64,000 nt of DNA from an uncultured Planctomycetia bacterium (GTDB taxonomy: Bacteria; 4484-113; JAGGVC01), in assembly GCA_964388445.1 (NCBI GenBank), contig CAYMAI010000004.1:80127-144126 (forward strand). The letters are read 5' to 3'. Position numbers and translations under genes: made by a program. The stretch's first letter is position 1. Every line of letters begins with the position of its first letter. The notes beneath the pieces were generated by a model. That model worked only from the letters and a program-made list of their open reading frames with translations, did no database searches and had not been told where the DNA came from. Below are positions 11,672 to 55,205 of the stretch, in pieces.

Positions 11672-13483
11672 ATGAGGAATTGGCTTGTTTGTGCGGGAGT
11701 ATTGCTGTCATTTATCATACTAGCGGCGCTTCAGGCCTGCACCGGCTCATCGCTGTCGCACGAGCCGTCATCGAACGATCCCGCGCCGAAAGGATACTCG
11801 GCGCCGAAAGACGGCGAGCGCGTTCAAACCGGCGGCGGGTTTTCGATTCACCCCACGGACGAACGCGGCAATCCGCGCCCCGACCTTGCCGCGAATTTTT
11901 CGCTGAAAGTCATCGAAGCGAAAGACGCGACCATCGTGGAGGTGTACGCGGTGAACTTCGAGGACGCTGACTGGGCGTTTTTCAAACTCAACTACAACTG
12001 GAACATGTATAAGCCCAAGAGCGTGGACTTCACGGAATTCATGGGCGGTCCGGGCGAAGTGATTTCGCTTGCGATAACCGGATATTGGAAATACGTGGAC
12101 GTCGGAATCGTGCGCACGTACTTCGACAAGCGTCCCGGCGTGGACGGCAGTGGAATGCTATGCCGTGCGTACTTCGACAACTCGCCTTTCGGCGAAAAGC
12201 GCTATGTGGCGAGAGACCCGCAGAATCCGGCCAACGACGCGCCGACGAGCGACGTCAACCGCGTGACGATTACGGTGGCGCTCGTTGACGGCAAGCCCCA
12301 GCTTACATGGCGCGAGCGCAACATCGGCGACGGCGACAACAGCGGCGAAGTGGGAATTCCCGATATCACGCCTATCGCGCTGAACTATCTCGATACGCTT
12401 CCGAACCCGTCGAAGCCGTGGCTGGAAATCGTGGATTACGACGCTAACGGCGAAATCGGCGTTCCGGACATTACGCCCATAGCAATCAGGTATCTTACGA
12501 ATCTAGTCGGCTATCAGGTGCTTACGAGCACGAACGGCGTGAATTTCACGCCGCTTACGAGCGGCGCGACCGTGACCCGCAGTTCGATGAACCCCGCGCC
12601 GAAAACGTCGGACGGCCGGATTCAATACACATGGAGCGCGGCGACGCTGCCGGACGTGGACACTTTCTATCGCGTGGCGCCGGTTGCGGCGAACGGCAAC
12701 ATCGGCCAAATGTCGAACACGGCGCAGTTCCAAACCTCCCAGCCGCTTCAAAACGTCAGGATTATCAACCCGGTGACGGGCGATCCGATTCTCGGCATCG
12801 ACCCAGACCCGAACGCGCTGCCGCTAATCGTTACCGAAACGAGCAGGATTTCGCCGAGCGCGGCGGAAGGATTCGCTCGCCCGCAGGTGCAGCTTCGCGC
12901 GTACGGCCTTCCGGTCGGCGCGGCGCAGGAAATCGAAGTGACCGACCAAGTGCTTTGGGACATCGAACTTCACGACCAAGTGGCGATGGTTGGCAATTCG
13001 AGCGAGGACAAGGGTCTCGTGACGGGCCTAAACCGCGGCTTCGCCGTAGTGCGGGCGATGAGCCCGTTCGATTTCCAGGTGAAGGCGACGTTCACGATTT
13101 CTTGCGCGACGATTCAATCGCTCGACATGACGACGGGCGGCTCGACGAACCCGATTAACATAGCGGCCGGAACCGATGTGCCGTTCCAGGTGCTCGCCAC
13201 GTTTTCGGACGGCTACGACCCCGACCCCGGCACGCCGCAGGACGAAACGCCCGATATAACCGGAATCAACATCACGCCGTACGTGGGCTGGTTGCACGTG
13301 CAGAACACAGTTAACCCCGTGAACTTCATTTTCCGCACGGACGGCACGCTGATTACCACGAATCCCGGAATTCAAACCGGCGATTGGGTGCGCGTGTTCT
13401 GTCAGTATCCCGCGGAGGAAAACCCGGTAATCGCGTTCGGCTTCGTCGCGACGAGCAACCCGATTCAGGTGAATTTCAATTAG
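11672..13483 (+). CDS. surface lipoprotein with duplicated dockerin-like Ca-binding repeat
   Basis: Lipobox (LQAC). Twin segments DGDNSGEVGIPDITPIALNYL and DYDANGEIGVPDITPIAIRYL at nt ~12330-12490. Paralogous to the genes at 47866 and 52803. Confidence 0.7.
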   Translation: MRNWLVCAGVLLSFIILAALQACTGSSLSHEPSSNDPAPKGYSAPKDGERVQTGGGFSIHPTDERGNPRPDLAANFSLKVIEAKDATIVEVYAVNFEDADWAFFKLNYNWNMYKPKSVDFTEFMGGPGEVISLAITGYWKYVDVGIVRTYFDKRPGVDGSGMLCRAYFDNSPFGEKRYVARDPQNPANDAPTSDVNRVTITVALVDGKPQLTWRERNIGDGDNSGEVGIPDITPIALNYLDTLPNPSKPWLEIVDYDANGEIGVPDITPIAIRYLTNLVGYQVLTSTNGVNFTPLTSGATVTRSSMNPAPKTSDGRIQYTWSAATLPDVDTFYRVAPVAANGNIGQMSNTAQFQTSQPLQNVRIINPVTGDPILGIDPDPNALPLIVTETSRISPSAAEGFARPQVQLRAYGLPVGAAQEIEVTDQVLWDIELHDQVAMVGNSSEDKGLVTGLNRGFAVVRAMSPFDFQVKATFTISCATIQSLDMTTGGSTNPINIAAGTDVPFQVLATFSDGYDPDPGTPQDETPDITGINITPYVGWLHVQNTVNPVNFIFRTDGTLITTNPGIQTGDWVRVFCQYPAEENPVIAFGFVATSNPIQVNFN

Positions 13484-16998: not shown

Positions 16999-17014
16999 AA
17001 GCGAGGATTGAAAA

Positions 17015-20580: not shown

Positions 20581-22281
20581 TCATGGCCTGGATTGGCCGA
20601 ACAGATATCCGATTAGTGCGGCGTCGCGTTCGTCGATGACGCCGTCGCGGTTTCCGTCAAGCGTCGGGAAGAGCGAGGCGGAATTGTTAAAGGAAGGCAT
20701 TACTGTACCGAACCAGAATGCGTAAAGCGCGTCGAGATCCGCAAGGTCGATTTTGTCGTCACCGTTGTAATCGCCGTCGAATACGCGCGTATAAAACGGC
20801 TGGGGCTCGCTTTCGAAAGATTCGTCGCGCCGGTGTGCGCGCACGGTCAGAAACTGCACGTTGTTCGTGAAGTCGTCAGGATTCAGCGTGAACTTGAAGC
20901 CGTTCGCGGGCGTGTCATCCGAGCGGTACACCGCGCCGTTAATCAGGAATTCGACGGATTCCACGTTCGAATTCGTGACGATTTCGATTTCGTAAAGCGA
21001 GCCTTTTTCATACGCCGAGCCGGCAAAGCCTTCCGGGAAATTGAAAAAGACTTCGGTGTCGTTGATATAGGTAATCACATTCGAGGGGTTGACGGAAACT
21101 ATGAGAACGTCGCCTTCAATCCAATCTTCCGTTATGGTCGCTTTCACTTCCGAGGGCGACCACGAGTCGGTTGCAACTTCGAGCGCTGACACGAGAAGCT
21201 GGCCGGATGTGCCGAAGTGTTTGCCAGTTATCGTAATTTGGTTGCCCGTAGAAGCGCGAATCGCCGACGGCGCGGTTATAAGCGGGTCGATTGCAATCGT
21301 CAAAGTGTTAAGCGCATTTCCGCCGATTGTGACGGTTATGATTGACGAGCTTTGAACGGCGTTTATCGGTGGGACGTTTACGGAAATCTGGGTGTCGGAC
21401 CACAAAACTACCTGCGCAGGCGATTCCTCGCCGCCGAACGAAATCGTGCTTGCGCCTTGCGTCGACCCAAGTTTCGAGCCGCTGATGACGAGCGATTCGC
21501 CTTCCGCCGCGTTCGTTTTGTCCGCGCCGGTCAAAAACGGATTGCTGACTTCAAACTCACCGTCCGTCGCAGCGATTGTGCCGTCTATGATGACGAAAAT
21601 CTGGCCCGTAATCGCAAAGTCCGGAACCGCGACGCTTATTTGGGTATTCGTCCAATTGAGGATTTCGGCGGGGATAGTATCGGGGCTTCCGGCAAAATGA
21701 ACTTCGTCTGTCGATTCGTCGAATGTGCCGAAAAACGTACCGGTTATCGTCACGGTGTCGCCGTATTCGCCGGACGACGGCGTGAAGAACGTGACATCCT
21801 GCTCTTGCACGGTATAGGAAAATTCGTTACTGAAAAAGCTCTCTTCGCCGGCGGTATCCACGACGGTTACGCGATAAAAGTATGTCTCGCCGACAATCGG
21901 ATGGCCGCCGGTGAACATCATATCGTCGAAAGTTATCGGGTCGCCGGGCTGTTGCGGAATTGCGATGCCGTCGTTCACGCGAATCGTCACGTCACCCTCG
22001 CGGCCGTCCGCGATGGGGCTTGTATCGCGGTAAAGAAAATATCCCGCGGCGGTGGGCTCGGCAACGCGCGTCCACGTCAGCCGGATGCCGACCGGAAGGC
22101 CAGACGTCGTGCGCCCGAATGGCATAAGTGCAGACAAAATTTTGGGGGGCGAAAGCGCGGCATTGCCGCGTGCGCCTTGTTCAAGCGCGTTCCCGCTTCG
22201 TCCGCCGCATGCGGAAACCGAGAGAACCACCGCCGCCGCAAGCGCCGCAAAAATCGAAAAAGAATAAAACTTCTTTAGCAT
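20581..22281 (-). CDS. FN3/IPT-domain surface lipoprotein with C-terminal type-I dockerin
   Basis: Lipobox (VSAC). The N-terminus is shared with the 22294 gene (GIRLTW...ETYFYRVT). The C-terminus carries DGDYNGDDKIDLADLDALYAFWFG...DGNRDGVIDERDAALIGYLFG, a duplicated dockerin segment. Confidence 0.7.
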   Translation of the reverse strand: MLKKFYSFSIFAALAAAVVLSVSACGGRSGNALEQGARGNAALSPPKILSALMPFGRTTSGLPVGIRLTWTRVAEPTAAGYFLYRDTSPIADGREGDVTIRVNDGIAIPQQPGDPITFDDMMFTGGHPIVGETYFYRVTVVDTAGEESFFSNEFSYTVQEQDVTFFTPSSGEYGDTVTITGTFFGTFDESTDEVHFAGSPDTIPAEILNWTNTQISVAVPDFAITGQIFVIIDGTIAATDGEFEVSNPFLTGADKTNAAEGESLVISGSKLGSTQGASTISFGGEESPAQVVLWSDTQISVNVPPINAVQSSSIITVTIGGNALNTLTIAIDPLITAPSAIRASTGNQITITGKHFGTSGQLLVSALEVATDSWSPSEVKATITEDWIEGDVLIVSVNPSNVITYINDTEVFFNFPEGFAGSAYEKGSLYEIEIVTNSNVESVEFLINGAVYRSDDTPANGFKFTLNPDDFTNNVQFLTVRAHRRDESFESEPQPFYTRVFDGDYNGDDKIDLADLDALYAFWFGTVMPSFNNSASLFPTLDGNRDGVIDERDAALIGYLFGQSRP

Positions 22282-22293
22282 TTTCTACCGCCG

Positions 22294-23919
22294 TTAAATC
22301 TGTCCGCCGCCCGTCAGGTTTGGCGGTGGAAGAACAATCGTAATCGAAGAACCGCTGCTGTCCACGCTCGCCACGCGAACGTACACGCTGCCGGTCTTTG
22401 CCGTGTCGGGGATTTCGATGGTTATCGAGGTTTGACTCCACGATACGTAATCGCCTGCTTGCACCTCGACATCGTCGCCGGTGTCGCCCGGAGTGCCGTT
22501 ATCAAACCAGACCGTGCTGGTGCCGCGTGCCGCGCCGAAGCCGTTGCCCGAAATCACGAGTTGGTCGAGTTTGGTCTTGCGCGCCGAATCGAGGCCGGAA
22601 ATTGACGGCTTGACGTTGAAGTTGAGCGTATTGCTTTCGAGCGTTTCTTCTGCGCTGTCGCCGCTGACGTTCGCCTTGACCGTAACTTTCACCGCGACCT
22701 GTCCGCTGATGCCGCTGGGCACCGTGGCTTGTATTTGCGTGTTGTTCCAACTTGAGACAGTCGCGGCCGCCGCGCCGAATTGAACTGAACTGGTGCCCTG
22801 AGACGCGCCGAACGTGTGTCCGTTAATCGTCACAGACGAGCCGATTTCGCCTTCGCTTACTGAGAGCGAAGTAATCTTCGGCAGCACGTCGAAGCTGGCT
22901 GTATTGCTCGTGTTGTTTCCGGTCGAAACGGTAATTGCGCCGTCGGTAGCGGCGCCGACCGGAACGTTGACTTCGATTTGTGTATTGGTCCAGCTTACGT
23001 AATCGCCGGACGCGGCTTCCTGCGTGCCGAAAAACACTTTGCCGTCCCCCGCCGAGCGGTCGGCTTCGAAGTGGTTTCCGCTTATCGTAATCGTGTCGCC
23101 GACGCGTCCTTGATTGGGGTCAACCGTGGCTATGGACGGGGCTACGACGGTGAAGTCGCCCGTCGATTCAATGATTTGCGCCGCTTCGAGCGTGACCCTC
23201 ACATGACCCGTTACCGCTCCGGTGGGAACGACGACGGAAATGTTGGCATCCGTCCACGAATTGATGTCGGCTTCAATCCATGTGCCGCCGGGTCCGCTGA
23301 ATTCGACTTTGTCGCCCGAATCCTGAGTGCCGAAGCCTTCGCCGAGAACCTCAATGGTATCGAGAATGCTCGCCGATCCCGGATTGAAGCCCGTTATGGA
23401 AGAACCTATGGTTATGGACAACTCGTTGCTTACGTCGGATTCGTCGTCCGTATCGTTGATGTTCGTTACGCGGTAAAAATAGGTTTCTCCCCAAGCGGGA
23501 GGTCCTTCGGCGGGCGGCGAGCCGCCGCCAAAATAGATGTCGTCCCAATCGACTTCGTCGCCGGAGCCGGGATTGGCTATGGAGCTTGCATTTACCTTCT
23601 TGTCCGCGTCGGCAAGCCCGTCGTCCATCGTCTCGACGTCGCGATAAACGTTATAGCCGCCGTCGGCCTCTGCTTGGCGGTCCCAAGTGAGTCTGATACC
23701 TTCCGGCATACCGCTCGCTCCACGGATTATTTCCGCCCGCAGATTCCCGCCGGCGTTCGGATAGGTGGAGCCTGTCGGAAGAAAATCGCCCGGAACAGGC
23801 ATTACGCGCTGGGCGGGTGGCTTGAGATCCTGACTTGATGCGCCGCCGCCGCCGCCGCAAGCGGCGATTAGGATCGCCAGCAAGGAAGCCAAAATAATAA
23901 ATACAATTCCTCTTGTCAT
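22294..23919 (-). CDS. FN3/IPT(TIG)-repeat surface lipoprotein
   Basis: ATG with AAGGGGGA RBS. Lipobox (IAAC). Repeated IPT-like modules (SISGNHF, TINGHTFG, VISGNGFG). C-terminal tail VLPPPNLTGGGQI. Confidence 0.7.
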   Translation of the reverse strand: MTRGIVFIILASLLAILIAACGGGGGASSQDLKPPAQRVMPVPGDFLPTGSTYPNAGGNLRAEIIRGASGMPEGIRLTWDRQAEADGGYNVYRDVETMDDGLADADKKVNASSIANPGSGDEVDWDDIYFGGGSPPAEGPPAWGETYFYRVTNINDTDDESDVSNELSITIGSSITGFNPGSASILDTIEVLGEGFGTQDSGDKVEFSGPGGTWIEADINSWTDANISVVVPTGAVTGHVRVTLEAAQIIESTGDFTVVAPSIATVDPNQGRVGDTITISGNHFEADRSAGDGKVFFGTQEAASGDYVSWTNTQIEVNVPVGAATDGAITVSTGNNTSNTASFDVLPKITSLSVSEGEIGSSVTINGHTFGASQGTSSVQFGAAAATVSSWNNTQIQATVPSGISGQVAVKVTVKANVSGDSAEETLESNTLNFNVKPSISGLDSARKTKLDQLVISGNGFGAARGTSTVWFDNGTPGDTGDDVEVQAGDYVSWSQTSITIEIPDTAKTGSVYVRVASVDSSGSSITIVLPPPNLTGGGQI

Positions 23920-23954
23920 ATCCGTTATCCCCCTTGTAAGGATTAAACAGAACA

Positions 23955-28006: not shown

Positions 28007-28136
28007 AACTCCTCCGCAATTACCATAAATGGGAAGCGCCCTAAAGAGCGTTTCCCGATTTTAAAATCCCAAAATATTACCTCATAAGGCGTAATCCGCA
28101 ACATAATTGCCGCGTTTTTGCCGATTCGCGGCGCTT

Positions 28137-40952: not shown

Positions 40953-41251
40953 CTGACCCTCCGAAAATATCTTTCCCCAACCACCTTGTCCGTAAGATAC
41001 GCCGAGACTATTCCTCACGAACACGCGGCTTTTCCGTCGAGGCCACTTTCCGCCAAGCAACGCGTGGCGGCGATACCCGAGCGGGGTAAAGCCGGATTAT
41101 AACACAGCGAAACCCTTCAAAATCAATCCCTTGCGCCAAAAAAAGCAAGAACGAGATTGCGCTTCGCGGCACTTAACCTTCGCGGACGGTTTTTGGCGAA
41201 ATCGGCGGCTTTTCGGGATATAATCCGCGCTTTCAATTTTCGGAGCTATTC

Positions 41252-45676: not shown

Positions 45677-46633
45677 ATGCTCAAGTTATTCGCCCTGTCC
45701 GTTGCAGCAACGATTTTGGTTTTGTTTTTCGCTTTGGAAACCGGCGCAGGCGCCGCGGCAAACCCGCGCACTCTTTCCCTCAAGCTTTCGCCGGACGAAT
45801 CGCGGCAAATCGCGCTTGCGGGCTTTTCGGGCGAATTAAACTTCACTCGCTCGGCGGGCGAAAGCGCGGAAATAACCGTGACGATATTTCCCGCCGAAAA
45901 AGGGCTTGGAATACAGGCGAAAATCGCCGCATTCAGACTTGAGAAAATTCAGGGCGAAAACGGAACGTCGGTCACGCTCGTTCCCTTTCCGGGAATCGAG
46001 GACGGCGCTTACAAAATTTCCGCGAGCGCCGCATTGCCTGAAGGCGCGGGGCTTGCCGTCGAGATTCCGGAAGGCTCGGTCAAAATGCGCGGCGTTAAGT
46101 TGGGAAAGGCGGCGGTTCGGGTTTCGGGAGGAAGAATCGACATTTCTTCATGCGCGTTCGTCGCTCTGTCCGCGTACGCAAGCGCTGGAATATCCGCGCG
46201 TTCAAGCAAAGGCGCCCTTAACCTTTCGGCGGACGGCGGCGATATTTACCTGCAGAATCACGCCGGCGCCGTCAGCGCGAACACCGGCGAAGGCGCGATA
46301 AAAATCGAAGGGGGGCTTGGAAACCGCAGCGTGGCGAGCGATTCCGGAAGCGTCTTCATTTCCGCCGCAAGCCCGTCCACTCGCGAAGAGCGCGAGCAGC
46401 ATTTTTACGACGCAATTCAGGTGAACACTTTTTCCGGAAACGTTAAACTCGAACTTCCCGCGGGAGATTATTCGATTTCCGCAATCTCGAAAACCGGCAT
46501 CGTAAGATGGCGAATCGCGAAGGGACTCGGCGTGAAAAAAACCGGCAAGATGACGGTCGTCGGGGAGGGTCACATGGCGGTCGCGGTCGAAACGGAATCG
46601 GGCGGAGTGGATATCGCCGCCGGCTACTCGTAA
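45677..46633 (+). CDS. putative adhesin / DUF4097-like all-beta repeat protein
   Basis: Signal/TM N-terminus. Repeated beta-solenoid-like segments (GxVxLxxxxGxIxI). Confidence 0.45.
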   Translation: MLKLFALSVAATILVLFFALETGAGAAANPRTLSLKLSPDESRQIALAGFSGELNFTRSAGESAEITVTIFPAEKGLGIQAKIAAFRLEKIQGENGTSVTLVPFPGIEDGAYKISASAALPEGAGLAVEIPEGSVKMRGVKLGKAAVRVSGGRIDISSCAFVALSAYASAGISARSSKGALNLSADGGDIYLQNHAGAVSANTGEGAIKIEGGLGNRSVASDSGSVFISAASPSTREEREQHFYDAIQVNTFSGNVKLELPAGDYSISAISKTGIVRWRIAKGLGVKKTGKMTVVGEGHMAVAVETESGGVDIAAGYS

Positions 46634-47562
46634 CTGCGGATGCGCCAGTCGCTGTAATCCTGCGGCCCCGCGCCGGACACCGGACCCGGCTTCGACGAGT
46701 TCGCGAGCATTTCGCTCAAGGTCACGAAGTTATAGCCTTTTGCTTGAATGTCTTCGATAAGCTGCGGAAGAATCGCAATCGTCGCGTCCGAGCCGTCGTG
46801 AAGAAGAATGATGCTGCCCGGCTCGACGCTGTCCAAAATGCTTTTGTGAAGTTTTTTCGGGTCGGAAACGTCGAGATCTTTCGAATTGTACGTCCATAGA
46901 GCGACGGCGAGTTTATGCTCCGCGATGCGTTTCAAAACCGCCTGGTCGTATCTGCCGCCTGGCGGGCGCAAAAACCTTGGGCGCTGGCCGGTGATTTCGA
47001 CGATGGCGTCCACGCTCTGCTTTATTTGGTACACCACTTCGTCGTCCGGCAAACTCGTCAGCCGGAAATGGTCGTAGGTGTGCGTGCCTATTTCGTTTCC
47101 CAGCTGGGCGGTCATCTTGGCCCAGTGGGGATATTTGTTCATCATGAAGCCGACCATGAAAAACGTCGCCCGAATCCGGTAGTGCTGCAAAATCGAAAGG
47201 ATTTTCGACGTATAAACAGGGTGCGGGCCGTCGTCGAACGTGAACGCGACTTCGCGCCGGGCGACGCTGCCGCGAGCCAGCGTGATGACTATCGGATTGC
47301 CGAATTCGTCCAAATTGATTTTCGCCGCCTGCATTTCGTCGAGCAAAACGTCGTCGCGCGAATCAATCGGCGAGTCGTAGCGATACACATCGCCGTTGCC
47401 GCTCGGCGCATCGTCGCCGGAATGGCCTTCCCCGCTGTCGTTGTAAACGTAGTAAGTGTCGCCGGTTTTCTCGTCTTTTTCGAGATTGGCGTAAGCCGCG
47501 TGTAAAACGCCGGAAGCGAGCGTAAAAACAATTAAAAGCGTCAAAAAACGAACGGCGAGCAT
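46624..47562 (-). CDS. polysaccharide deacetylase (NodB homology domain, CE4)
   Basis: TFDDGP motif, RATFFMVG, and His motifs downstream. GGAGGA RBS before the chosen ATG. Confidence 0.75.
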   Translation of the reverse strand: MLAVRFLTLLIVFTLASGVLHAAYANLEKDEKTGDTYYVYNDSGEGHSGDDAPSGNGDVYRYDSPIDSRDDVLLDEMQAAKINLDEFGNPIVITLARGSVARREVAFTFDDGPHPVYTSKILSILQHYRIRATFFMVGFMMNKYPHWAKMTAQLGNEIGTHTYDHFRLTSLPDDEVVYQIKQSVDAIVEITGQRPRFLRPPGGRYDQAVLKRIAEHKLAVALWTYNSKDLDVSDPKKLHKSILDSVEPGSIILLHDGSDATIAILPQLIEDIQAKGYNFVTLSEMLANSSKPGPVSGAGPQDYSDWRIRSYE

Positions 47563-47751
47563 AACGATAAATCCTCCAAACGCGGCCCGAAGGCGCCGGA
47601 TTCTATCATCGCCCCGCCCATTGCGCAACCCTAACGGGCGGCTGGTGTTTGCGCCGGTTATGGCACAAAACCGCCATGCTTCGCCGCCTTTGAGACTAAA
47701 TAGCCTAAAAATCACATCGGAATAGTGTTTTATCGATTTTTCGCCGGGGGA

Positions 47752-47865: not shown

Positions 47866-50262
47866 ATGAACGTGAGGAGAGGGCTTTGGCTCATTCTTGT
47901 CCCCCTCGTCATCGTCGCGTTCGCCTGTAGCAACGGCTCGATGCAATCGCCCAGCGTCAGCGGCGATCCGCCGTCCGGATTCAAACTGGACGGGGTTCGC
48001 GGCGCCGCCGCGCTTCCGCTCAGCCTTGCAGTCAGCGAAACGGCGCCGGGCTTCGAGGTAAGCGTCGAACTTGCATCCCCGGTCGCGACGGACGACGTGT
48101 ATTTCAAAATTTGTTACGACGCGAGCAAGGTGAATCCCGCCGGCGTAGAATTTCATGGCGCGCTCGGCGAAAGCATAGACCTTGCGATAACCACGATACC
48201 GGGCGAAGTCGCCGCCGGCACGAGCCGGATTCGCGAAATAGGCGATTCCCCGGCAATGATTTCGGGTCTTATCGCTACGCTGAAGTTCGAGAACCGTCCC
48301 TGCACTATCGAACGTTCGGCGAGCGGTTTAGCCCCGATAAATCAGGAAAACAAAGTTGACGACCTGACCGCGCTCGTGGCCGGCGGCCAAGCGACGCTGA
48401 CGTGGACCGAGAAAAACCTCGGAGATTACGACAACAGCGGCGAAGTCGGCATCCCGGACATCACGCCTATCGCGCTGAACTATCTGCGCACAGCCGGTAC
48501 GATTCTGGAGCTGGTTGACGGCGACAAGAGCGGCGAAATCGGCATTTCGGACATCACGCCAATCGCGCTGAATTACGGCAACTACGTGGAAGGTTATCGC
48601 GTGAACACGCGGCGCGGCGGCTCGTGGACGAAAATCGATTGCGAAGCCAATCCCGCATCGCCTTACACGGTTACCCGACCGGCCAATCCGCCGTCGGACA
48701 GGCGCTGTACATACGAGTTTATGTATACGCTGGGCGCGGAAGACGAAGAAAACTTCACGGTTCAGCCAACCGGCCCGGACGGCAGCGCGGGAATCATTTC
48801 GAACACGACCGGCGGTGGCGGGCTTGACATTCCGCCGCCTCCGAGAATCGAAGACCTTACGGCGCGCGGCGGCCCCGACCTCGGGGACGGCGTAATCGAG
48901 CTTACATGGACCGCGCCGGACGACCCGTATCTGGACAGATACAACGTCTGGTGGGAAAAAGGCGGCGACGGCACGAACCTCGTTCCTTACAATCCGAACC
49001 TCACGCCGACCGCGACGAGCCTGCTCGTAACCGGCTGCGAACCCGGAGCGACCTATCATTTCCGGATTTGGGGCACGAACTTCAACGAGTACGGCCAGCG
49101 TCAGGACGCTCCGGCGAGCAACCTTGCATCCGCAATGGCGTTTTCGCCCGCGGGAATCCCGGTGATAAGCGACCTTTCGATTCTTAGCGACGCTTCGACC
49201 GGCAACGGCAACATCAAGCTGATGTGGACGATTCCGAGCGACCCGTACCTGCACCATTTCGAAATTTTGTGGCAGCAGGGCGGAGACGGCGGCAGCCTGA
49301 CCACGCTCGACAACAACGTTTCGCCGACCGCGAACGAGTATATGGTCACGGGATGCGCGCAGGGGCCGAGATTTTTCTTCAAAATCAAGTGCGCCTACGA
49401 CGGATTCCTGGGCCAAGCGTCGAACATGGTTTCGAGCACGGCATATCCCACCCCGAACATCCCGCCGCTTTCGATAACGTCCGTCACGCGCAACCGCACG
49501 ACGTTTATGCCGGGCGACGCGATTAACCTCAGCGTTAACACGAACCTCGACGCGGAATACGCAAGCGACCTTCGCTATGAATGGACGGTCGCGAGCGGCC
49601 CGGGCAACATCACTGGCGGCGCCTCCGCGAAGAACGCCACCGGCGCGGTGACCGCGAAAGGCACGGTAACGTTCCAAGTTCGCGTGACCGTGAACGGAAC
49701 ACCGGGAGCGGACTACGACAAGACCGCGACAGTAATGGCGATTGGAACAACCTTAGCTCCTGCAATTCAGGTTGCCGGCGTAACGAATCCAAAATTCGTT
49801 TTTACCGGGTGGAATTACTTCGCCGGAAGAAACGAAAACATAGATGATTACTACACGCGAGAACATGTTGTAGGAATTTCGCTATGGGCTACTTGGTGAG
49901 GCGCGTGCGTCTCGGAGTTTCCGAGATTGCAAAACCTTTATGACAGATTGACTGCCGAAGGCGAAGATTACTACTACATAACTTTAGATTGCCAATACGG
50001 TTCTGACACGCAAGCGGTTCACGATGCTTTCCTCAATGTAAACGGTTATGACTACACTGCAGCCTTCTTTACCAATGAAAGCGGAGTTTCCGCGGCTTAC
50101 ATGGGAATCTGCGGCGATTTTGGTTTTTCACCGAACTACCTTCCAACAAATTTCATAATGGATCGCGACGGATGCATTCGCGCAGGGCAAAATACGGTTC
50201 CGGATCCGATTACCGCTTGGGAAAATAAGATTCGAGAGCTTTTGGGTGTTAATTTCGAATAA
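47866..50262 (+). CDS. candidate selenoprotein: cohesin/dockerin-like surface lipoprotein with C-terminal TlpA-type thioredoxin-fold domain (UxxC), UGA recoded at 49897-49899
   Basis: The ORF track splits this into 47833..49899 and 49927..50262, which are in the same frame. The in-frame TGA aligns with the first Cys of WCGPC in the paralog at 52803 (W-U-G-A-C versus W-C-G-P-C). Homology continues for about 110 aa after the TGA. A hairpin follows the TGA. Confidence 0.6.
49910..49926 (+). promoter_or_regulatory. candidate bacterial SECIS upper stem-loop (TCTCGGA-GTT-TCCGAGA)
   Basis: Perfect 7-bp stem with a GUU apical loop. 17 nt long, beginning 11 nt after the in-frame UGA. Confidence 0.4.
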
Positions 50263-50281
50263 ACAGCAATTTGAAAACAAG

Positions 50282-50310: not shown

Positions 50311-50315
50311 AAATT

Positions 50316-52454
50316 CTAAAACTGGCTATTGTGTGAATCCACAATCCATGAATACCAGCTTCCTTTTTGGCGTGGAACAATTCCGTACTTATTTGCTCTA
50401 ACTAGGTAATTGAGGCCGAATGACTCAAAGAGGTAATGGGAGCCGTATTTAGAATATGGGGAAACACTGAAGTTTGAACGATAATACAGAAATGCCATTG
50501 GCAAATCTTCGGGGTCCTTTGCGGGAATCGCCCAATAAGACTCCCAATGAAGTCGTCCCGCACCACGACCTGTACCGTCAAAAGAAGATATATCCAGCAA
50601 TTTGATTTGGCTTAAAGCAGAAGCTATGCGAGCAGTTTCCCTGTTTTCCGTCAGATAAAGCACTACCCCAGAGTCCTCACATTCGACATACCAACGCTCG
50701 TAGCCCATCCCAACCGGTGCTTGCCAATCATGCCGGTGGTTTACAACCTTCGAGCGCATTTCCATCAAATTCGTGCGCGTGTTCAAAATCCAGTAATTTA
50801 TGTCGAACAATGCAAAATCTGCTGTCTCCATTGTGCTAACGTACTTGTTTCGAGAAGATAATGTTGGATGAAGAAACTGCACCTCATATTCCAAGACAGG
50901 CGGCAACGGGGGATAGAAAACGGGCGAGTTTTCGACGACATCTAGTTCAAGCGGTTCCCCTATTTCCGGATTCCAAGCCCACACTACCGCCCCGGGATCA
51001 TCTCCATCTAATTGTTTCCATCTAAAAGCAAAGAAAACTCGACTTACCTTCCTGTCCGTAGGCTTAATGTTGTATCCCGGGTAATATGGGCCTTCTCCAA
51101 CAAAATAAGTGTTTTCAATCCAAGTGATTCCTAGGTTGGTTTCCCAGACATTGTCATCTCGCTCAATGAGCAAATCTGCTGTGCGCTCAAATTCGCAGTA
51201 CAGGCCTGTCCATTGTTCGTGTTCGTTGTTGACGGCGACAATTTCTGGACTGTCCCAGCTTCCGTTGGATTGCTGTAACACAACGCGCAGTGAATCAAGC
51301 CTATCATCTTGATTTATCGCGTCTCGTTCAATCCAGTGGAATGCAACCCCTCGCATATAATCACCCTCATCCGAAAAGTGCTCTACGTCTATACCATCCC
51401 CTATGATAGCGGGCAAGTAAAATGTATTGCTTGTCACGGGCCAAAATCTAGAATTTGTGGGGCTGTATGCTGAATCTCCCCACGTCTCCAAATACACTTC
51501 GCCTGTTTGGTCGTCCCAAGCAACTTCATATTGCCCACAAAAAATCCTTGGACCGCTTGCCATTTGGTAATTGTTTACCGAAGTCGCAAGACTGAATCTT
51601 GTGGTTTCTCCATCATAATCAGGTGTCAGTCCAATTTCAGGAGAAATGTTTAAAAGATATGTTTGCTCGGACGGCCAATCAGCTGCGCTTGCGGCCAATA
51701 CGCCAAAAACCTTAAACTCATAGTTTTCAACCTCAGGGTCTGGATTGAAATGCCCAATAGCAACACACAACACTGGATTAACGGGTCCATATTGAGGAAC
51801 CACCTGATTAAAGGCCTGTGCGCCGTAAAATGAAATGACAACTATCGGCCGCGTGTTTACGAATGGCTCCTCATTAATTTCATACTCATCATAAGTGGGT
51901 GCAACATAGGTAATTGCGATTGGGCCATGCGCACGGTATTCGTGAGCGGTTTCGGGGTAATGCCAACCCCCTGCAGAGCTTTTGTAGCTCAATGGTACAA
52001 AGTTGCCTTCAACCACCGCAGTCGATTTAGACCAAGTCATTTCATCAGGAAGCCATTCTTGAAAGAGAATTTTTGGCGTTTCAGGATACTCCCTGTAGTC
52101 AGCACCTTGTTCATCAACATCAAACGGTCCATCTTCCCAGAGAACCGCACTTCCGACCCTATTATCGCCTATTTCCTCATCATAATAGTGGTCTGCGACT
52201 GACATTACGATTTGAGCGTTGTCAATATCATCAATTTCGTGCTCGCTCAAATACTCACTTACGTAACCCGGCTCTGGCCAAACCTGGCCCGGCCAAGTGT
52301 TGTTAGGAATGATGTGCTGAGACTCCGAATCCTCAGACGCTCCCACAACTGGCACTTTCCCCACATCAACGGAACCCTTTTTCTTGCCGGAGCAAGAAAC
52401 GACAACTACAAAAAGCGCAAGTGCGCAAACGAAGAACAACAAAATTCTACCCAT
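50316..52454 (-). CDS. hypothetical surface lipoprotein encoded in AT-rich insertion
   Basis: GGAGGG RBS. Lipobox (VVSC). 712 aa. GC is about 45%, against about 62% in the flanks. No recognizable domain. Confidence 0.55.
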   Translation of the reverse strand: MGRILLFFVCALALFVVVVSCSGKKKGSVDVGKVPVVGASEDSESQHIIPNNTWPGQVWPEPGYVSEYLSEHEIDDIDNAQIVMSVADHYYDEEIGDNRVGSAVLWEDGPFDVDEQGADYREYPETPKILFQEWLPDEMTWSKSTAVVEGNFVPLSYKSSAGGWHYPETAHEYRAHGPIAITYVAPTYDEYEINEEPFVNTRPIVVISFYGAQAFNQVVPQYGPVNPVLCVAIGHFNPDPEVENYEFKVFGVLAASAADWPSEQTYLLNISPEIGLTPDYDGETTRFSLATSVNNYQMASGPRIFCGQYEVAWDDQTGEVYLETWGDSAYSPTNSRFWPVTSNTFYLPAIIGDGIDVEHFSDEGDYMRGVAFHWIERDAINQDDRLDSLRVVLQQSNGSWDSPEIVAVNNEHEQWTGLYCEFERTADLLIERDDNVWETNLGITWIENTYFVGEGPYYPGYNIKPTDRKVSRVFFAFRWKQLDGDDPGAVVWAWNPEIGEPLELDVVENSPVFYPPLPPVLEYEVQFLHPTLSSRNKYVSTMETADFALFDINYWILNTRTNLMEMRSKVVNHRHDWQAPVGMGYERWYVECEDSGVVLYLTENRETARIASALSQIKLLDISSFDGTGRGAGRLHWESYWAIPAKDPEDLPMAFLYYRSNFSVSPYSKYGSHYLFESFGLNYLVRANKYGIVPRQKGSWYSWIVDSHNSQF

Positions 52455-52517
52455 AACAACCCTCCGAACTTTTAGTAAAATGCGCCAAGGATTTTCAATG
52501 GCACACAGCGATTTTAC

Positions 52518-52532
52518 AAAAAAAAAAAAAAA
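52518..52532. repeat. homopolymeric A15/T15 tract in the promoter region of the 50316..52454 lipoprotein gene
   Basis: 15 consecutive A on the plus strand, about 65-80 nt upstream of the minus-strand ATG. Confidence 0.6.
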
Positions 52533-52802
52533 GGAAAATTCAAGCTTCCACACCTTGTTATAGAAATAACAAGCTTTCCGTGCTATGAATTCCAAACAAC
52601 AAAACACTTTGAAACAGCCATCCTGGCACCTTGCGCTTTACAAGTCGCCGTAACATTTGTTAAATATTGTAAAATCCGCCCGAAAAGCCTCTTTTTGCTT
52701 GCGTAACTATTCACATAATATCCTATCGATGTGATATAATATCGGCGCCGGGCAGGCCGCGCCGTTGCGCAGTCAATCCCAATTCATCCCGGCATTGGGG
52801 AG

Positions 52803-55205
52803 TTGATGAACGTGAAGAGAGGATTATTCGGATTTATTCTGCTTCTACTAATCTTCGCCGCAATCGCTTGCGGCAAGAACTCGGCGCCCACGCACGCTCC
52901 GCAGGCTGAAAAATCGTCCGGTTTCGAGCTGGACGGCGTGCGCGGAACGGCCTCGCTTCCGCTAAGCCTTGCGGTCGGCGACACCGCGCCGGGATATGAA
53001 ATAAGCGTCGAGCTTGCGGCTGAAACCGAGGCGAACGACGTTTTCTTCAAGGTCAAGTACGACCCGGCGGCGGTCAGCCCCGCGGGCGTGGATTTCCACG
53101 GCGCGCTGGGCGAAAGCATTGACCTTGCGATTACCTCGGTGCCCGGCGAAGTGGCGGTAGGCACAAGCCGCATTCGCGAAGCGGGCGACGGGCCGGTAAG
53201 GATTTCGGGCGTCATCGCGACCTTGAGGTTCGAAAACGGCGCGTTCGGCGTGGAGCGCCGGGTCAGCGGGCTTGCGCCGGTGAACTCCGACAACAAAGTG
53301 ACCGACCTTATCGCGACCACGGTTGGCGATCAGGTTACGCTTAATTGGACGGAGAAAAACCTCGGCGATTACGACAACAGCGGCGAGGTCGGCATTCCGG
53401 ACATCACGCCTATCGCGCTTAACTATCTCAAGACTACCGGCACGGTTCTCGAACTCGTGGACGGCGACAAGAGCGGCGAAATCGGCATATCCGATATAAC
53501 GCCCATCGCTCTGAATTACGGAAACGCGATTGCGGGCTACCGCATCAACAGCCGGCGCGACGGAAGCTGGGTCAAAATCGACAGTCCGTCGAACCCCGGC
53601 TCGGCGTACACCGTAAGCCGTCCGTCCGCGCCTCCGCAGGACAGCCTTGTTCGCTACGAGTTCGTTTACACGCTCGAAGCGGGCGACGAGGAGAACTTCC
53701 AGACGCAGCCGGTCGGCCCGGACAACAGCACGGGCATCGTATCGAACGCGACGGCGGGCGGCGGAATTTCGATTCCCGCGCCTCCGAGGATTGAAGACCT
53801 TACGGCTCGCGGCGGCCCCGATTTGGGCGACGGCGTAATCGAGCTTTCTTGGACGACGCCGGACGACCCGCACCTAGACCGCCAGAACGTATGGTGGGAG
53901 AAGGGCGGCGACGGCTCGAACCTCATTCCTTACAATCAGAACGTACCGCCTACCGCGAACAGCCTGCTCATTTCGGGCTGCGAGCCGGGCGAGACCTATC
54001 ACTTCCGGGTGTGGGGCACGAACTTCAACGAATACGGCCAGCGTCAGGACGCGCCGGCAAGCAACCTTGCATCGGCTTTGGCGTTCTCGCCGGCGGGCAT
54101 TCCCGTAATTAACGACCTGTCCGTACTTAGCGACGTCACGACCGGCAACGGAAACATCAAGCTTATGTGGACGGTTCCTAGCGACCCGTATCTGCACCAC
54201 TTCGAAATCCTCTGGCAGGAAGGCGGCGACGGCAGCAATATGACGGTGCTCGACGGAAACGTTTCGCCGACCGCTAGCGAATTCATGGTGACCGGATGCT
54301 CGGAAGGACCGAGGTATTTCTTCAAGATTAAGGCGGCTTACGACGGATTCGTGGGACAGCCCTCGAACATGGTTTCGAGCACGGCGTTCCCGACACCGAA
54401 CATTCCGCCGCTTTCGATTACTTCGGTGACGCGCAACCGCACGACGTTTTCGCCCGGCGACGCGATTAACCTTGGAGTGGCTACCAATCTCGATGCGGAG
54501 TTCGCAAGCGACCTCGTGTACGAATGGACCGTGGCGAGCGGACCCGGAAACATCACGGGCGGCGCGTCCAGCAAAAACGCGACCGCGGGCGTGACCGCGA
54601 AAGGCACCGTGACGTTCCAAGTTCGCGTGACCGTGAACGGCGCGCCGGGCGCGGAATATGACAAGACCGCGACAGTGAAAGTCATCGGCACGACGCTCGG
54701 CCCGGCGATTAAAGTCATCGACACGACAAGCCCGGCGTTTCTTTTTAACGGCTGGAACTTCTTCGCGCAGGCGAACGAAGACGTCAACGACTACTACAAT
54801 CAGCAGCATGTCGTAATGCTCAATATGTGGGCGACTTGGTGCGGCCCGTGCCTTGCCGAGTTCCCGCGTATTTACGATATGAACCAAAGGCTGACGGCGG
54901 AAGGCGAAGACTTCTTCCTCGTGACGCTCGACTTCCAGTTCGGCTCGGACACTAAGGTGGCGCATGACAACTGGCTGACGAACAGCGGTTATCAGTATGC
55001 GGCGGCGTTCTTCGAGAACAACAGTGCGGCGGCGAACGCGTATATGGGAATGTGCAGCAGCTACGGCTTCTCGCCTGGCTACATTCCGACCAACTTCCTT
55101 ATGGACCGCGACGGTTACGTAAGGGCCGGTCAGAACGCAGTTCCCGACCCGATTACAGGTTGGGAAAACAAGGTTCGCGAACTTCTGGGAGACGACTTCG
55201 AGTAA
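52803..55205 (+). CDS. cohesin/dockerin-like surface lipoprotein with C-terminal TlpA-like thioredoxin domain (WCGPC), Cys paralog of the 47866 gene
   Basis: Lipobox (IAAC). Twin dockerin-like segments DYDNSGEVGIPDITPIALNYL and DGDKSGEIGISDITPIALNYG. C-terminal WATWCGPC thioredoxin active site. Confidence 0.75.
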   Translation: MMNVKRGLFGFILLLLIFAAIACGKNSAPTHAPQAEKSSGFELDGVRGTASLPLSLAVGDTAPGYEISVELAAETEANDVFFKVKYDPAAVSPAGVDFHGALGESIDLAITSVPGEVAVGTSRIREAGDGPVRISGVIATLRFENGAFGVERRVSGLAPVNSDNKVTDLIATTVGDQVTLNWTEKNLGDYDNSGEVGIPDITPIALNYLKTTGTVLELVDGDKSGEIGISDITPIALNYGNAIAGYRINSRRDGSWVKIDSPSNPGSAYTVSRPSAPPQDSLVRYEFVYTLEAGDEENFQTQPVGPDNSTGIVSNATAGGGISIPAPPRIEDLTARGGPDLGDGVIELSWTTPDDPHLDRQNVWWEKGGDGSNLIPYNQNVPPTANSLLISGCEPGETYHFRVWGTNFNEYGQRQDAPASNLASALAFSPAGIPVINDLSVLSDVTTGNGNIKLMWTVPSDPYLHHFEILWQEGGDGSNMTVLDGNVSPTASEFMVTGCSEGPRYFFKIKAAYDGFVGQPSNMVSSTAFPTPNIPPLSITSVTRNRTTFSPGDAINLGVATNLDAEFASDLVYEWTVASGPGNITGGASSKNATAGVTAKGTVTFQVRVTVNGAPGAEYDKTATVKVIGTTLGPAIKVIDTTSPAFLFNGWNFFAQANEDVNDYYNQQHVVMLNMWATWCGPCLAEFPRIYDMNQRLTAEGEDFFLVTLDFQFGSDTKVAHDNWLTNSGYQYAAAFFENNSAAANAYMGMCSSYGFSPGYIPTNFLMDRDGYVRAGQNAVPDPITGWENKVRELLGDDFE

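What the first reader, a model, noticed from the sequence alone, without database searches (positions are those of the whole stretch)
11672..55205. Three paralogous lipoproteins carry a duplicated dockerin-like Ca-loop/helix pair conserved almost identically at the nucleotide level
The genes at 11672, 47866 and 52803 each contain two ~22-aa segments, D-x-D-x-S-G-E-V-G-I-P-D-I-T-P-I-A-L-N-Y and a second copy. These have the Asp/Asn spacing of EF-hand-like dockerin calcium loops followed by a helix (nt 12330-12490, 48421-48590, 53361-53530). The DNA encoding them is near-identical among paralogs (gacaacagcggcgaagtcggcatcccggacatcacgcctatcgcgctgaactatct), which suggests gene conversion or recent duplication. 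Their N-terminal ~110 aa resemble a cohesin-like beta-sandwich. Each protein would then be a cohesin+dockerin adaptor, as in scaffoldins, yet none is linked to carbohydrate-active enzymes.
Basis: partly seen in the sequence, partly recalled or inferred. Interest (0 to 1): 0.7.

Follow-up and report, generated by a model that had tools for sequence, protein, structure and literature searches.

The report
Surface lipoproteins with cohesin-like and dockerin-like modules
Three membrane-anchored lipoproteins each carry a calcium-binding "dockerin" plug nested inside an FN3 domain, next to a "cohesin"-shaped domain; they belong to a large undescribed family in uncultured bacteria that probably uses cellulosome-style plug-and-socket parts for purposes other than cellulose breakdown.

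Summary
Genes at 11672-13483, 47866-50265 and 52803-55205 are paralogous lipoproteins, each with two 22-residue loop-helix repeats (D-x-D-x-S-G-E-V-G-I-P-D-ITPIALNY).

**Dockerin-like module.** Pfam Dockerin_1 and Cohesin do not hit the window proteins. However, a family profile of the module finds only dockerins as its top 8 hits among solved structures. Two homologues also pass the Pfam dockerin threshold at the same site.

- The dockerin-like module is inserted between strands B and C of an FN3 domain.
- This lipoprotein head is shared by a family of at least about 1,300 clusters at 50% identity, with 8-20 loci per genome in five of the nine genomes that matched, most of them labelled Planctomycetia/Planctomycetales or just 'bacterium'. 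The C-terminal cargo varies.
- Gene 2 does not end at 49899. Its TGA is a selenocysteine codon (WATW-U-GAC) followed by a SECIS-like hairpin.

**Not supported.** Gene conversion or recent duplication: synonymous-codon identity inside the module is no higher than outside it.

**Untested.** Actual Ca-dependent cohesin-dockerin binding.

Verdict: a new variant of a known kind, non-cellulosomal cohesin/dockerin.

The parts
11672..13483 (+). G1: 603-aa lipoprotein (lipobox Cys23 at 11738-11740) = cohesin-like domain + FN3 with nested dockerin-like module + Ig-like C-terminal part
   Evidence: Weak Big_2 hit only (E 0.074). Orthologues in L009 and L011 at 51-55% identity.
11828..12229 (+). G1 cohesin-like N-terminal beta-sandwich (family HMM envelope)
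   Evidence: hmmsearch with the A4 profile, E 3e-43. Fold assigned by homology to the G3 domain modelled.
12329..12493 (+). G1 dockerin-like module: DGDNSGEVGIPDITPIALNY ... DYDANGEIGVPDITPIAIRY
47866..50265 (+). G2: about 799-residue lipoprotein (Cys21 at 47926-47928), read through an in-frame UGA. Order: cohesin-like, FN3 with nested dockerin-like module, 2 x FN3, PKD-like, thioredoxin-fold domain with a UxxC motif
   Evidence: Public gene calls stop at the UGA, giving 677 aa.
47971..48345 (+). G2 cohesin-like domain
   Evidence: A4 profile, E 2e-41
48352..48774 (+). G2 host FN3 domain, split by the insert (approximate borders, transferred from the G3 model)
48424..48576 (+). G2 dockerin-like module
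49897..49899 (+). In-frame TGA read as selenocysteine (WATW-U-GAC), aligned to the first Cys of G3's WATWCGPC
   Evidence: The same TGA position occurs in relatives L005 and L081, and a C-U variant in L022 and L069.
49906..49931 (+). SECIS-like hairpin (stem UCUCGGA/UCCGAGA, apical loop GUU) starting 10 nt after the UGA
   Evidence: dG -17.4 kcal/mol, z -3.3. Different stem sequences with the same GUU-containing loop in L022, L069 and L081.
52803..55205 (+). G3: 800-aa lipoprotein (799 aa from ATG 52806; Cys23 at 52869-52871). Same architecture as G2, but with a CGPC motif in the thioredoxin-fold domain
52911..53291 (+). G3 cohesin-like domain (structured sandwich about 52923-53237)
53295..53717 (+). 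G3 host FN3 domain. Strands A-B (...TLNWTEKN) lie before the insert and strands C-G (GYRINSR...) after it
53367..53519 (+). G3 dockerin-like module: two F-hand repeats with helices from loop position 10, plus a short linker helix
54783..55202 (+). G3 thioredoxin-fold (AhpC-TSA / Redoxin / TlpA-like) domain with CGPC
   Evidence: PF00578 E 1.7e-9, PF08534 E 2.4e-6. DsbE/ResA/TlpA-like hits lie below the NCBIfam cut-offs.
20611..20775 (-). Canonical C-terminal dockerin of a fourth lipoprotein (gene 20581-22281). That protein has an uninterrupted N-terminal FN3-like stretch and TIG domains. It is a possible further partner for the cohesin-like domains
   Evidence: PF00404 E 1e-4, 22.8 bits against a cut-off of 22.9. 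Sequence.

Best explanation
**What it is.** G1, G2 and G3 are envelope lipoproteins built on a shared N-terminal head. The order is: lipid-anchored Cys, a small cohesin-fold beta-sandwich, then an FN3 domain. The loop between FN3 strands B and C is replaced by a ~55-residue dockerin-type module. That module has two EF-hand-like calcium loops, each running into a helix, plus a short linker helix.

**Cargo.** Behind the head sits variable cargo. G1 has Ig-like domains. G2 and G3 have FN3, PKD and a thioredoxin-fold thiol:disulfide oxidoreductase domain, with selenocysteine in G2 and cysteine in G3.

**How it most likely works.** The nested dockerin binds two Ca2+ ions, folds, and presents a conserved, largely hydrophobic helix face (positions 10, 11, 17, 18 = I, P/S, A, L). 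That face docks onto a protein partner. The obvious candidate is the cohesin-fold domain carried by about one third of the family, on the same or on other molecules. Differently loaded lipoproteins would then be assembled into complexes on the cell envelope: a non-cellulosomal cohesin-dockerin system.

**Shown versus inferred.**
- Shown: the sequence motifs, the family, the predicted folds, and homology of the module to dockerins.
- Inferred: calcium binding, from the ligand pattern.
- Inferred and untested: cohesin-dockerin binding, the identity of the partner, and the cellular location.
For: **Dockerin homology**
- The family profile (A3, 31 sequences) against all PDB sequences gives dockerins as its 8 best hits, aligned over both repeats (4fl4_A E 1.3e-4, 4wi0_B, 2y3n_B, 4u3s_B, 2ccl_B, 4cj0_A/1clc_A CelD, 1ohz_B). 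Classical EF-hand proteins come only after them.
- Homologues P0008 and P0022 exceed the Pfam Dockerin_1 gathering score at the homologous site.
- Loop positions across 97 family members: pos3 D/N 99% in repeat 1 and D/S/N 99% in repeat 2, pos5 N/S/D about 95%, pos6 G, pos8 V/I. Asp, not Glu, is at position 12, as in dockerins.
- The AF2 model (pLDDT 86.9) has helices at loop positions 10-18 of both repeats and a short linker helix.

**Cohesin fold**
- The best Foldseek hit of the 285-aa model is the cohesin+FN3 pair of C. perfringens GH84C, 2w1n, E 6.9e-6.

**FN3 host**

**Family-wide docking head**
- 2,818 representatives at E <= 1e-3 and 1,292 at E <= 1e-30.
- 144 stretches in nine genomes; among the 77 kept loci, five genomes hold 8-20 each and four hold 1-3.
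- The lipobox Cys is nearly invariant. Cargo is diverse: PKD, FN3, beta-propellers, Peptidase_C11, GH5, GH114.
- 37 of 108 dockerin-bearing ORFs also carry the cohesin-like domain.
- Some members carry Pfam-detectable cohesins (P0003).

**Precedent**
- A peptide-degrading cohesin/dockerin 'planctosome' has been proposed for Planctomycetes (PMC6461901).
Against: - Pfam Dockerin_1 and Cohesin models do not hit the window proteins, even on excised segments at E <= 10.
- Loop position 9 is Gly rather than the Asn/Asp usual in dockerins.
- The dockerin helix motif DITPIA is far more conserved across species than the cohesin-like domain (23-35% identity). That is not what a co-evolving pair would obviously show. 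It fits equally well with a face that packs against the host FN3 domain or binds some other conserved partner.
- Two thirds of family members lack the cohesin-like domain, and no multi-cohesin scaffoldin was seen in the loci examined.
- No binding, calcium or localisation data exist.
Confidence: 0.55

Rival explanations
1. Structural calcium clamp only. The dockerin-type insert binds Ca2+ and merely rigidifies or stabilises the membrane-proximal FN3 stalk of these lipoproteins. It has no partner, and the cohesin-like sandwich is just another spacer domain.
For: - The helix motif DITPIA is almost invariant across distant family members, while the putative cohesin partner is poorly conserved.
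- Two thirds of members have no cohesin-like domain.
- The module is nested in a domain rather than exposed at a terminus.
- From general knowledge: many non-cellulosomal dockerin-like modules have no known partner.
Against: - Strong conservation of solvent-facing positions that contact cohesin in true dockerins (10, 11, 17), and the preserved two-fold internal symmetry (16/22 identical between the repeats of G2 and G3), exceed what calcium ligation alone needs.
- The module co-occurs in one family with cohesin-fold and Pfam-positive cohesin domains.
Confidence: 0.25
2. The dockerin-like module docks the lipoproteins to a conserved non-cohesin envelope component, such as an S-layer, outer-membrane protein, glycan or sorting machinery. 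It would then be an anchoring or sorting tag rather than part of a cohesin-dockerin pair.
For: - The module always sits 120-300 residues from the lipidated N-terminus, whatever the cargo.
- It is far more conserved than any candidate cohesin.
- The family reaches CPR and DPANN genomes (L040 Kazan, L075 Nanoarchaeota).
Against: No candidate receptor was identified. The sequence and fold relationships point to the cohesin/dockerin pair specifically.
Confidence: 0.15
3. The nucleotide-level similarity reflects gene conversion or a recent duplication of the dockerin segment among the paralogues.
For: - The first repeat is 91-95% identical in DNA among the three genes.
- In that 18-codon stretch, G2 and G3 share 15/18 codons against a background of 0.56 (p = 0.015, a post-hoc test).
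Against: - Over the whole module, the same-codon fraction at identical residues does not differ from the rest of the genes (p = 0.22, 0.71, 0.70).
- Synonymous identity is as high or higher in the downstream FN3 region.
- Codon usage is strongly biased (GAC, GGC, CCG, ACG).
- G1 has orthologues at 51-55% identity in other genomes, and G2/G3 are only 74% identical.
- The same peptide motif is conserved in hundreds of distant proteins. Purifying selection is enough to explain the similarity.
Confidence: 0.07
4. The repeats belong to an unrelated calcium-binding fold, either thrombospondin type-3 repeats or a generic calmodulin-type EF-hand pair, and the N-domain is a generic Ig/CBM-like sandwich.
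For: - Generic EF-hand proteins (centrin, calmodulin) appear in the profile search at E 0.01-0.7.
- There is a weak EF-hand_1 hit at E 0.13.
Against: - No TSP_3 hit, and helices follow each loop.
- Dockerins outrank EF-hands by about two orders of magnitude in E-value and align over both repeats.
- Position 12 is Asp, not the Glu of canonical EF-hands.
Confidence: 0.03

Closest known systems
Type I dockerins of cellulosomal enzymes (e.g. C. thermocellum Xyn10B dockerin 1ohz_B/2ccl_B, Cel9 dockerin 4fl4_A; Pfam PF00404)
   Same: - Two tandem 22-residue F-hand repeats: a 12-residue D-x-D/N-x-D/N/S-G-x-V/I-x-x-x-D loop running into a helix.
- Asp at position 12, a short linker helix and internal two-fold symmetry.
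- They are the best profile hits.
   Different: - Nested in the B-C loop of an FN3 domain near the N-terminus, rather than a free C-terminal module.
- Cohesin-contact positions are hydrophobic (I-P/S ... A-L instead of S-T ... K-R).
- Gly at position 9 and a Pro in the helix (DITPIA).
- Below the Pfam threshold.
- Carried by lipoproteins with non-cellulolytic cargo.
Non-cellulosomal cohesin-dockerin pairs: C. perfringens GH84C cohesin-FN3 (2w1n, 2vo8) and the Archaeoglobus fulgidus cohesin (2xdh)
   Same: - A cohesin-fold domain directly followed by FN3; 2w1n is the best Foldseek hit.
- No cellulosome context.
   Different: - In C. perfringens, cohesin and dockerin sit on different secreted glycoside hydrolases.
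- Here both are in one lipoprotein, the dockerin is inside the FN3 domain, and the cohesin-like domain is shorter and not detectable by sequence.
Adaptor scaffoldins (cohesin plus dockerin in one polypeptide, e.g. ScaA/ScaB types) and the hypothetical 'planctosome' adaptor of freshwater Planctomycetes (PMC6461901)
   Same: - One protein carries both a cohesin-type and a dockerin-type module.
- The proposed role is assembly of non-cellulolytic (peptidase) complexes in Planctomycetes.
   Different: - A single cohesin-like domain, never in arrays.
- A lipid anchor instead of an SLH or LTD anchor.
- The head is repeated at 8-20 loci per genome in five MAGs.
- Neither system has been shown experimentally.
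Prx-like thiol:disulfide oxidoreductase / redoxin-family UxxC selenoproteins (PMC9312934)
   Same: - G2's thioredoxin-fold domain has UGA at the first position of the CxxC motif.
- It has a Cys-containing paralogue (G3) and a hairpin about 10 nt downstream of the UGA.
   Different: Here the domain is the distal cargo of an ~800-residue multidomain lipoprotein with the cohesin/dockerin head. NCBIfam selenoprotein models are not matched.

Membership tests
Dockerin (type I, Pfam PF00404) | Two tandem ~22-residue segments, each a 12-residue calcium loop followed by a helix (F-hand), about 60-70 residues in all, with a connecting helix | tested here: met
   The motifs are read directly. AF2 places helices at loop positions 10-18 of both repeats, plus a linker helix, with pLDDT above 90.
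Dockerin (type I, Pfam PF00404) | Calcium-ligand pattern: oxygen-bearing side chains at loop positions 1, 3, 5, 9 and Asp at 12 | tested here: met
   - Window: D1, D3, S5/N5 and D12 in all six loops.
- Family: D1 and D12 are invariant in the unanchored alignment A3. Pos3 is D/N/S 99% and pos5 N/S/D 95% (positions 1 and 12-17 were used to anchor that count).
- Deviation: position 9 is Gly in 70-87% of members.
Dockerin (type I, Pfam PF00404) | Scores above the Pfam gathering threshold | tested here: not met
   No PF00404 hit for G1-G3 as whole proteins (E <= 1) or as excised modules (E <= 10). Homologues P0008 (26.9 bits) and P0022 (25.0 bits) pass the 22.9-bit cut-off at the same site.
Dockerin (type I, Pfam PF00404) | Detectable homology to experimentally defined dockerins | tested here: met
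   The profile of 31 family modules against PDB sequences gives dockerins as its top 8 hits, E 1.3e-4 to 9e-3, covering both repeats.
Dockerin (type I, Pfam PF00404) | Ca2+-dependent binding to a cohesin | not testable with these tools
   Needs ITC, pull-down or a complex structure.
Cohesin (Pfam PF00963) | Elongated jelly-roll beta-sandwich of the cohesin topology | tested here: met
Cohesin (Pfam PF00963) | Sequence-model membership | tested here: not met
   No PF00963 hit. The profile of 12 N-domains finds no cohesin among PDB sequences at E <= 10. hhalign against a Pfam-positive cohesin of P0003 gives probability 0.2%.
Cohesin (Pfam PF00963) | Binds a dockerin | not testable with these tools
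   No complex prediction or experiment was available.
Fibronectin type III domain (host of the insert) | Seven-strand sandwich with conserved Trp in strand B and Tyr in strand C | tested here: met
Bacterial lipoprotein | Signal peptide ending in a lipobox with an invariant Cys | tested here: met
   By sequence only...ALQAC...VAFAC...AAIAC. The Cys is nearly invariant in 63 family members. The lipobox positions -3 and -2 are non-canonical. No predictor was run.
UxxC thioredoxin-fold selenoprotein (Prx-like thiol:disulfide oxidoreductase) | In-frame UGA aligned with a redox Cys of homologues, with conserved coding sequence downstream | tested here: met
   - WATW-UGA-GAC in G2 against WATWCGPC in G3.
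- 122 further codons are 50-80% identical to G3, with mostly different codons.
- The same UGA position occurs in L005 and L081, and a C-U variant in L022 and L069.
UxxC thioredoxin-fold selenoprotein (Prx-like thiol:disulfide oxidoreductase) | Bacterial SECIS hairpin shortly after the UGA | tested here: met
   The hairpin lies 10 nt after the UGA, dG -17.4 kcal/mol, z -3.3. Relatives have different stems with the same GUU-containing loop. The L005 hairpin is weak.
UxxC thioredoxin-fold selenoprotein (Prx-like thiol:disulfide oxidoreductase) | Genome encodes SelA, SelB, SelD and tRNA-Sec | not testable with these tools
   None is in the 64-kb window: no tRNA and no sel gene among the ORFs scanned. 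The rest of the genome is not available.
   No TSP_3 hit. Each loop is followed by a helix. There are no Cys residues in the module.

The most novel reading that the evidence does not exclude
The nested FN3-dockerin head could be the universal connector of a previously undescribed envelope display system in uncultured Planctomycetia-like bacteria, with outliers in CPR and DPANN genomes. In this reading, dozens of lipoproteins per cell are plugged by Ca-dependent cohesin-dockerin contacts into hetero-oligomeric surface assemblies. Their cargo includes proteases, beta-propellers, glycosidases and Sec/Cys thiol oxidoreductases. It would be a lipid-anchored, non-cellulolytic counterpart of the cellulosome. 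The cohesin+dockerin members, such as G1-G3, could polymerise head-to-tail as the scaffold.
Probability: 0.3. Interest if true: 0.7.

Novelty: new variant of a known kind. Interest (0 to 1): 0.45.

Why it matters
- Cohesin-dockerin pairs are the classic high-affinity connectors of cellulosomes and are widely reused in protein engineering. Their roles outside cellulose degradation remain mostly hypothetical.
- This finding defines a large, uncurated family: at least about 1,300 clusters at 50% identity, with no Pfam or NCBIfam model.
- In that family a dockerin-type module is nested inside an FN3 domain at the lipid-anchored end of diverse envelope proteins. One third of members also carry a cohesin-fold domain.
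- If binding is demonstrated, it would give an experimental handle on how poorly known bacteria organise their surface enzymes. It would also add a new, compact, domain-embedded connector.
- The Sec/Cys paralogue pair (G2/G3) is a natural case for studying selenocysteine use in extracytoplasmic thiol-disulfide chemistry.

Tried and rejected
- **Pfam and NCBIfam scans.** Scans of the whole proteins and of excised modules gave no Dockerin_1, Cohesin, TSP_3 or curated family hit. Family membership could only be reached through relatives and profiles.
- **Sequence link to cohesins.** The profile of the N-domain against PDB sequences and hhalign against a Pfam-positive cohesin of P0003 showed no sequence link.
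- **Rfam.** A scan of the window at gathering thresholds found nothing, so there is no curated model for the hairpin.
- **tRNA scan.** No tRNA-Sec in the window.
- **Hairpin alignment.** MAFFT misaligned the five post-UGA regions. Hairpins were therefore folded singly, and no covariance model was built.
- **Exact-protein look-up.** G3 from TTG 52803 is not on record. From ATG 52806 it is.
- **Unavailable resources.** The afdb50 fold library was not available. Peer et al. 2009 (PMC3035643) is not held.
- **Gene conversion.** Tested with codon identity at identical residues and rejected.
- **Not possible.** Extracting a dockerin-only model for a fold search, inspecting inter-domain contacts or PAE, and predicting a cohesin-dockerin complex.

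Full report

- ORF listing shows three long + strand ORFs: G1 11672-13483 (603 aa), G2 47833/47866-49899 and G3 52803-55205 (800 aa).
- Each begins with a hydrophobic signal ending in ...A-C, which is lipobox-like.
- A three-way alignment shows two invariant blocks, GD(Y/G)DNSGEVGIPDITPIALNYL and D(G/Y)D(K/A)(S/N)GEIG(I/V)(S/P)DITPIA.
- A six-frame scan finds DITPIA only in these genes, six copies.
- The quoted 56-mer is exact in G2, has 3 mismatches in G3 and 5 in G1. None is expected by chance.

'Near-identical DNA' applies only to the first repeat. Over the whole module, G2/G3 are 86% identical and G1 is 71-72% identical to either.

**2. Gene conversion or recent duplication?**

- At residues that are identical between paralogues, I compared the fraction using the same codon inside and outside the module. 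The values were 0.67 vs 0.56 (G2/G3), 0.57 vs 0.53 (G1/G2) and 0.59 vs 0.63 (G1/G3). None is significant (p 0.22-0.71).
- The downstream FN3 region shows equal or higher synonymous identity.
- Codon usage is strongly biased.
- Only the 18 codons of repeat 1 show a weak, post-hoc excess: 15/18 for G2/G3 (p 0.015) and 13/18 for G1/G2 (p 0.08).
- G1 has its own orthologues in other genomes (L009 and L011, 51-55%).
- G2 and G3 are 74% identical to each other, and each is 46-49% identical to the single orthologues in L005 and L006.

The G1 versus G2/G3 split is therefore old, and the G2/G3 duplication is lineage-specific but not recent. Purifying selection on the peptide explains the DNA similarity.

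**3. Is it a dockerin?**

There is no PF00404, PF00963 or TSP_3 hit on whole proteins or on excised segments at E <= 10, and no NCBIfam hit for the head. Relatives settle the question:

- A search with G3 residues 36-320 found 46 homologues, the best at 49% identity. P0008 and P0022 pass the Pfam Dockerin_1 gathering score exactly at the homologous double motif.
- A profile of 31 modules (A3) searched against all PDB sequences returns dockerins as its 8 best hits, aligned over both repeats. These are 4fl4_A at E 1.3e-4, 4wi0_B, 2y3n_B, 4u3s_B, 2ccl_B, CelD (4cj0_A/1clc_A) and 1ohz_B. Centrins and calmodulins follow at E >= 0.013.
- The loop pattern is D1-x-D/N3-x-S/N/D5-G6-x-V/I8-x-x-x-D12. 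Asp rather than Glu sits at position 12, as in dockerins. D1, D12 and A17 are invariant in the unanchored alignment.
- One deviation is Gly at position 9.
- Another is that the positions contacting cohesin in classical dockerins (10, 11, 17, 18) are I, P/S, A, L. That comparison rests on textbook knowledge of the Xyn10B dockerin, not on a test here.

**4. Structure**

- AlphaFold2 on G3 residues 36-320 with 48 sequences gives mean pLDDT 86.9.
- The model has a beta-sandwich (model residues 6-110) and two strands (135-148). Three helices follow (163-171, 180-184, 194-202), then five or six more strands (210-269).
- Helices 1 and 3 start at loop position 10 of each repeat. This is the dockerin F-hand arrangement.
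- The dockerin-type module is therefore an insertion in the B-C loop of an FN3 domain. No solved chain matched more than one of the three parts, apart from cohesin+FN3 pairs.

**5. Is the N-domain a cohesin?**

- By sequence, no.
- Foldseek with the 285-residue model ranks the cohesin-FN3 double module of C. perfringens GH84C first (2w1n, E 6.9e-6).

**6. The family**

- A scan of one genome per species found 144 stretches in only nine genomes. These are MAGs labelled uncultured Planctomycetia/Planctomycetales or just 'bacterium', plus one Kazan (CPR) and one Nanoarchaeota genome.
- Among the 77 kept loci, five genomes hold 8-20 each (CAZRQJ01, JAGGVC01, JAUWGS01, JAOZQG01, JAGGTK01) and the other four hold 1-3.
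- An exhaustive profile search of 1.84 billion representatives gives 2,818 hits at E <= 1e-3 and 1,292 at E <= 1e-30. Almost all have the match at the N-terminus. Some weak hits are plain FN3 arrays such as P0168.
- In 63 full-length members the lipobox Cys is nearly invariant. The C-terminal cargo is diverse: PKD 24, FN3 13, Ig, PQQ/BNR/SBBP propellers, Peptidase_C11 3, GH5, GH114, CarboxypepD_reg.
- Of 108 ORFs with the dockerin-like module (loci plus window), 37 also have the cohesin-like domain. It is always a single copy directly upstream. The rest have a short helical N-region instead.
- P0003 also has a Pfam-positive cohesin at its C-terminus. P0049 has two FN3-dockerin modules.

**7. 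Context in the window**

- The three genes lie among ordinary chromosomal genes. These include an RND efflux operon after G1, PEPCK, DegT, DNA polymerase III delta', peptide deformylase and histidine ammonia-lyase after G3.
- No glycoside hydrolase is adjacent. However, a Polysacc_deac_1 gene (46624-47715) lies divergently upstream of G2, and also upstream of its orthologues in L005 and L006.
- A fourth lipoprotein (20581-22281, minus strand) has an uninterrupted FN3-like N-terminus, TIG domains and a canonical C-terminal dockerin (22.8 bits against a cut-off of 22.9). It sits in a cluster with another TIG protein, an M6 peptidase and an S8 subtilase.
- That arrangement recalls the peptide-degrading 'planctosome' proposed for Planctomycetes (PMC6461901).

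**8. Mechanism**

- Best supported: a non-cellulosomal cohesin/dockerin-type docking head. The nested module binds Ca2+ and offers a conserved helix face to a protein partner.
- The cohesin-fold domains of the same family are the obvious candidates. Proteins such as G1-G3, which carry both modules, could link head-to-tail or bridge other members.
- The main weakness is that the dockerin helices are far more conserved than the cohesin-like domain, and most members lack that domain. A purely structural calcium clamp, or docking to another conserved envelope component, remains a serious rival.

**9. A finding outside the brief**

- G2's 'stop' at 49897-49899 is TGA, at the position of the first Cys of G3's WATWCGPC. 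The frame continues for 122 codons of thioredoxin-fold sequence to 50265.
- That downstream region is 50-80% identical to G3 in protein, with mostly different codons. It is therefore under purifying selection.
- A hairpin (UCUCGGA-GUU-UCCGAGA) begins 10 nt after the UGA (dG -17.4, z -3.3).
- Relatives have the same arrangement: L005 (WSYW-U-GYC), L081 (GSSG-U-HYC), and L022 and L069 (DDYC-U). Their stem sequences differ but the loop still contains GUU.
- G2 is therefore a UxxC selenoprotein of the known Prx-like thiol:disulfide oxidoreductase kind (PMC9312934). Public gene calls truncate it to 677 aa. G3 is its Cys paralogue.

**10. Verdict**

Its evolutionary reading (gene conversion or recent duplication) is not.
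- Non-cellulosomal cohesin and dockerin modules are already known. What is new is the nested FN3-dockerin topology, its use as a family-wide lipoprotein head, and the size of the family.
- I rate it a new variant of a known kind, with moderate interest.

Noticed in passing
window 49897-50265 (+), hairpin 49906-49931: G2 is a selenoprotein. An in-frame TGA replaces the first Cys of the CxxC motif (WATW-U-GAC against WATWCGPC in G3). A SECIS-like hairpin follows, then 122 conserved codons. Public gene calls truncate the protein at the TGA.
   Followed up: yes
L005 7581-7583; L081 2367-2369; L022 9207-9209; L069 1507-1509: Other family members with thioredoxin-fold cargo carry TGA at the same site (U-G-Y-C, U-H-Y-C). 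Two have a Cys-Sec dipeptide (DDYC-U-TFP) with no resolving Cys at +3. All have hairpins whose stems differ but whose loops contain GUU.
   Followed up: partly
window 20581-31796 (-): A cluster of secreted or lipoproteins. It holds a TIG protein with a canonical C-terminal dockerin (20611-20775), a second TIG protein (22294-23958), an M6-type peptidase with Big_7/TIG (23955-27431) and an S8 subtilase with Big_7/TIG (28137-31796). It may be a dockerin-linked protease set.
   Followed up: partly
window 46624-47715 (-); L005 4189-5190; L006 8609-9619: A polysaccharide deacetylase (Polysacc_deac_1) gene lies divergently upstream of G2 and of its orthologues in two other genomes. This is conserved synteny with a carbohydrate-active enzyme.
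   Followed up: partly
window 50316-52607 (-): A 712-763-aa ORF lies between the paralogues G2 and G3. It has a lipoprotein-like N-terminus (VVVSCSGKKKG) and no significant Pfam hit. It is present at the same place in the public contigs.
   Followed up: no
L040 (candidate division Kazan, CP011216) and L075 (Nanoarchaeota MAG; = P0022): The FN3-dockerin head also occurs in a CPR bacterium and a DPANN archaeon MAG. This is far from the Planctomycetia-labelled genomes that hold most copies. It could reflect horizontal transfer or a binning artefact.
   Followed up: no
P0049 (1341 aa) and P0003 (482 aa), metagenomic relatives: P0049 carries two FN3-dockerin modules and a cohesin-looking stretch between them. 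P0003 combines the cohesin-like N-domain, the FN3-dockerin module and a Pfam-positive cohesin at residues 331-430.
   Followed up: partly
window 37995-41060 (-): A 1021-aa protein with an N-terminal SIR2_2 (SIR2-like) domain fused to a long TPR array. The function is unclear.
   Followed up: no
window 7263-8567 (+) and 8694-9890 (+): Two adjacent HD_5/HD-domain proteins (HD-GYP-like), apparently tandem paralogues.
   Followed up: no
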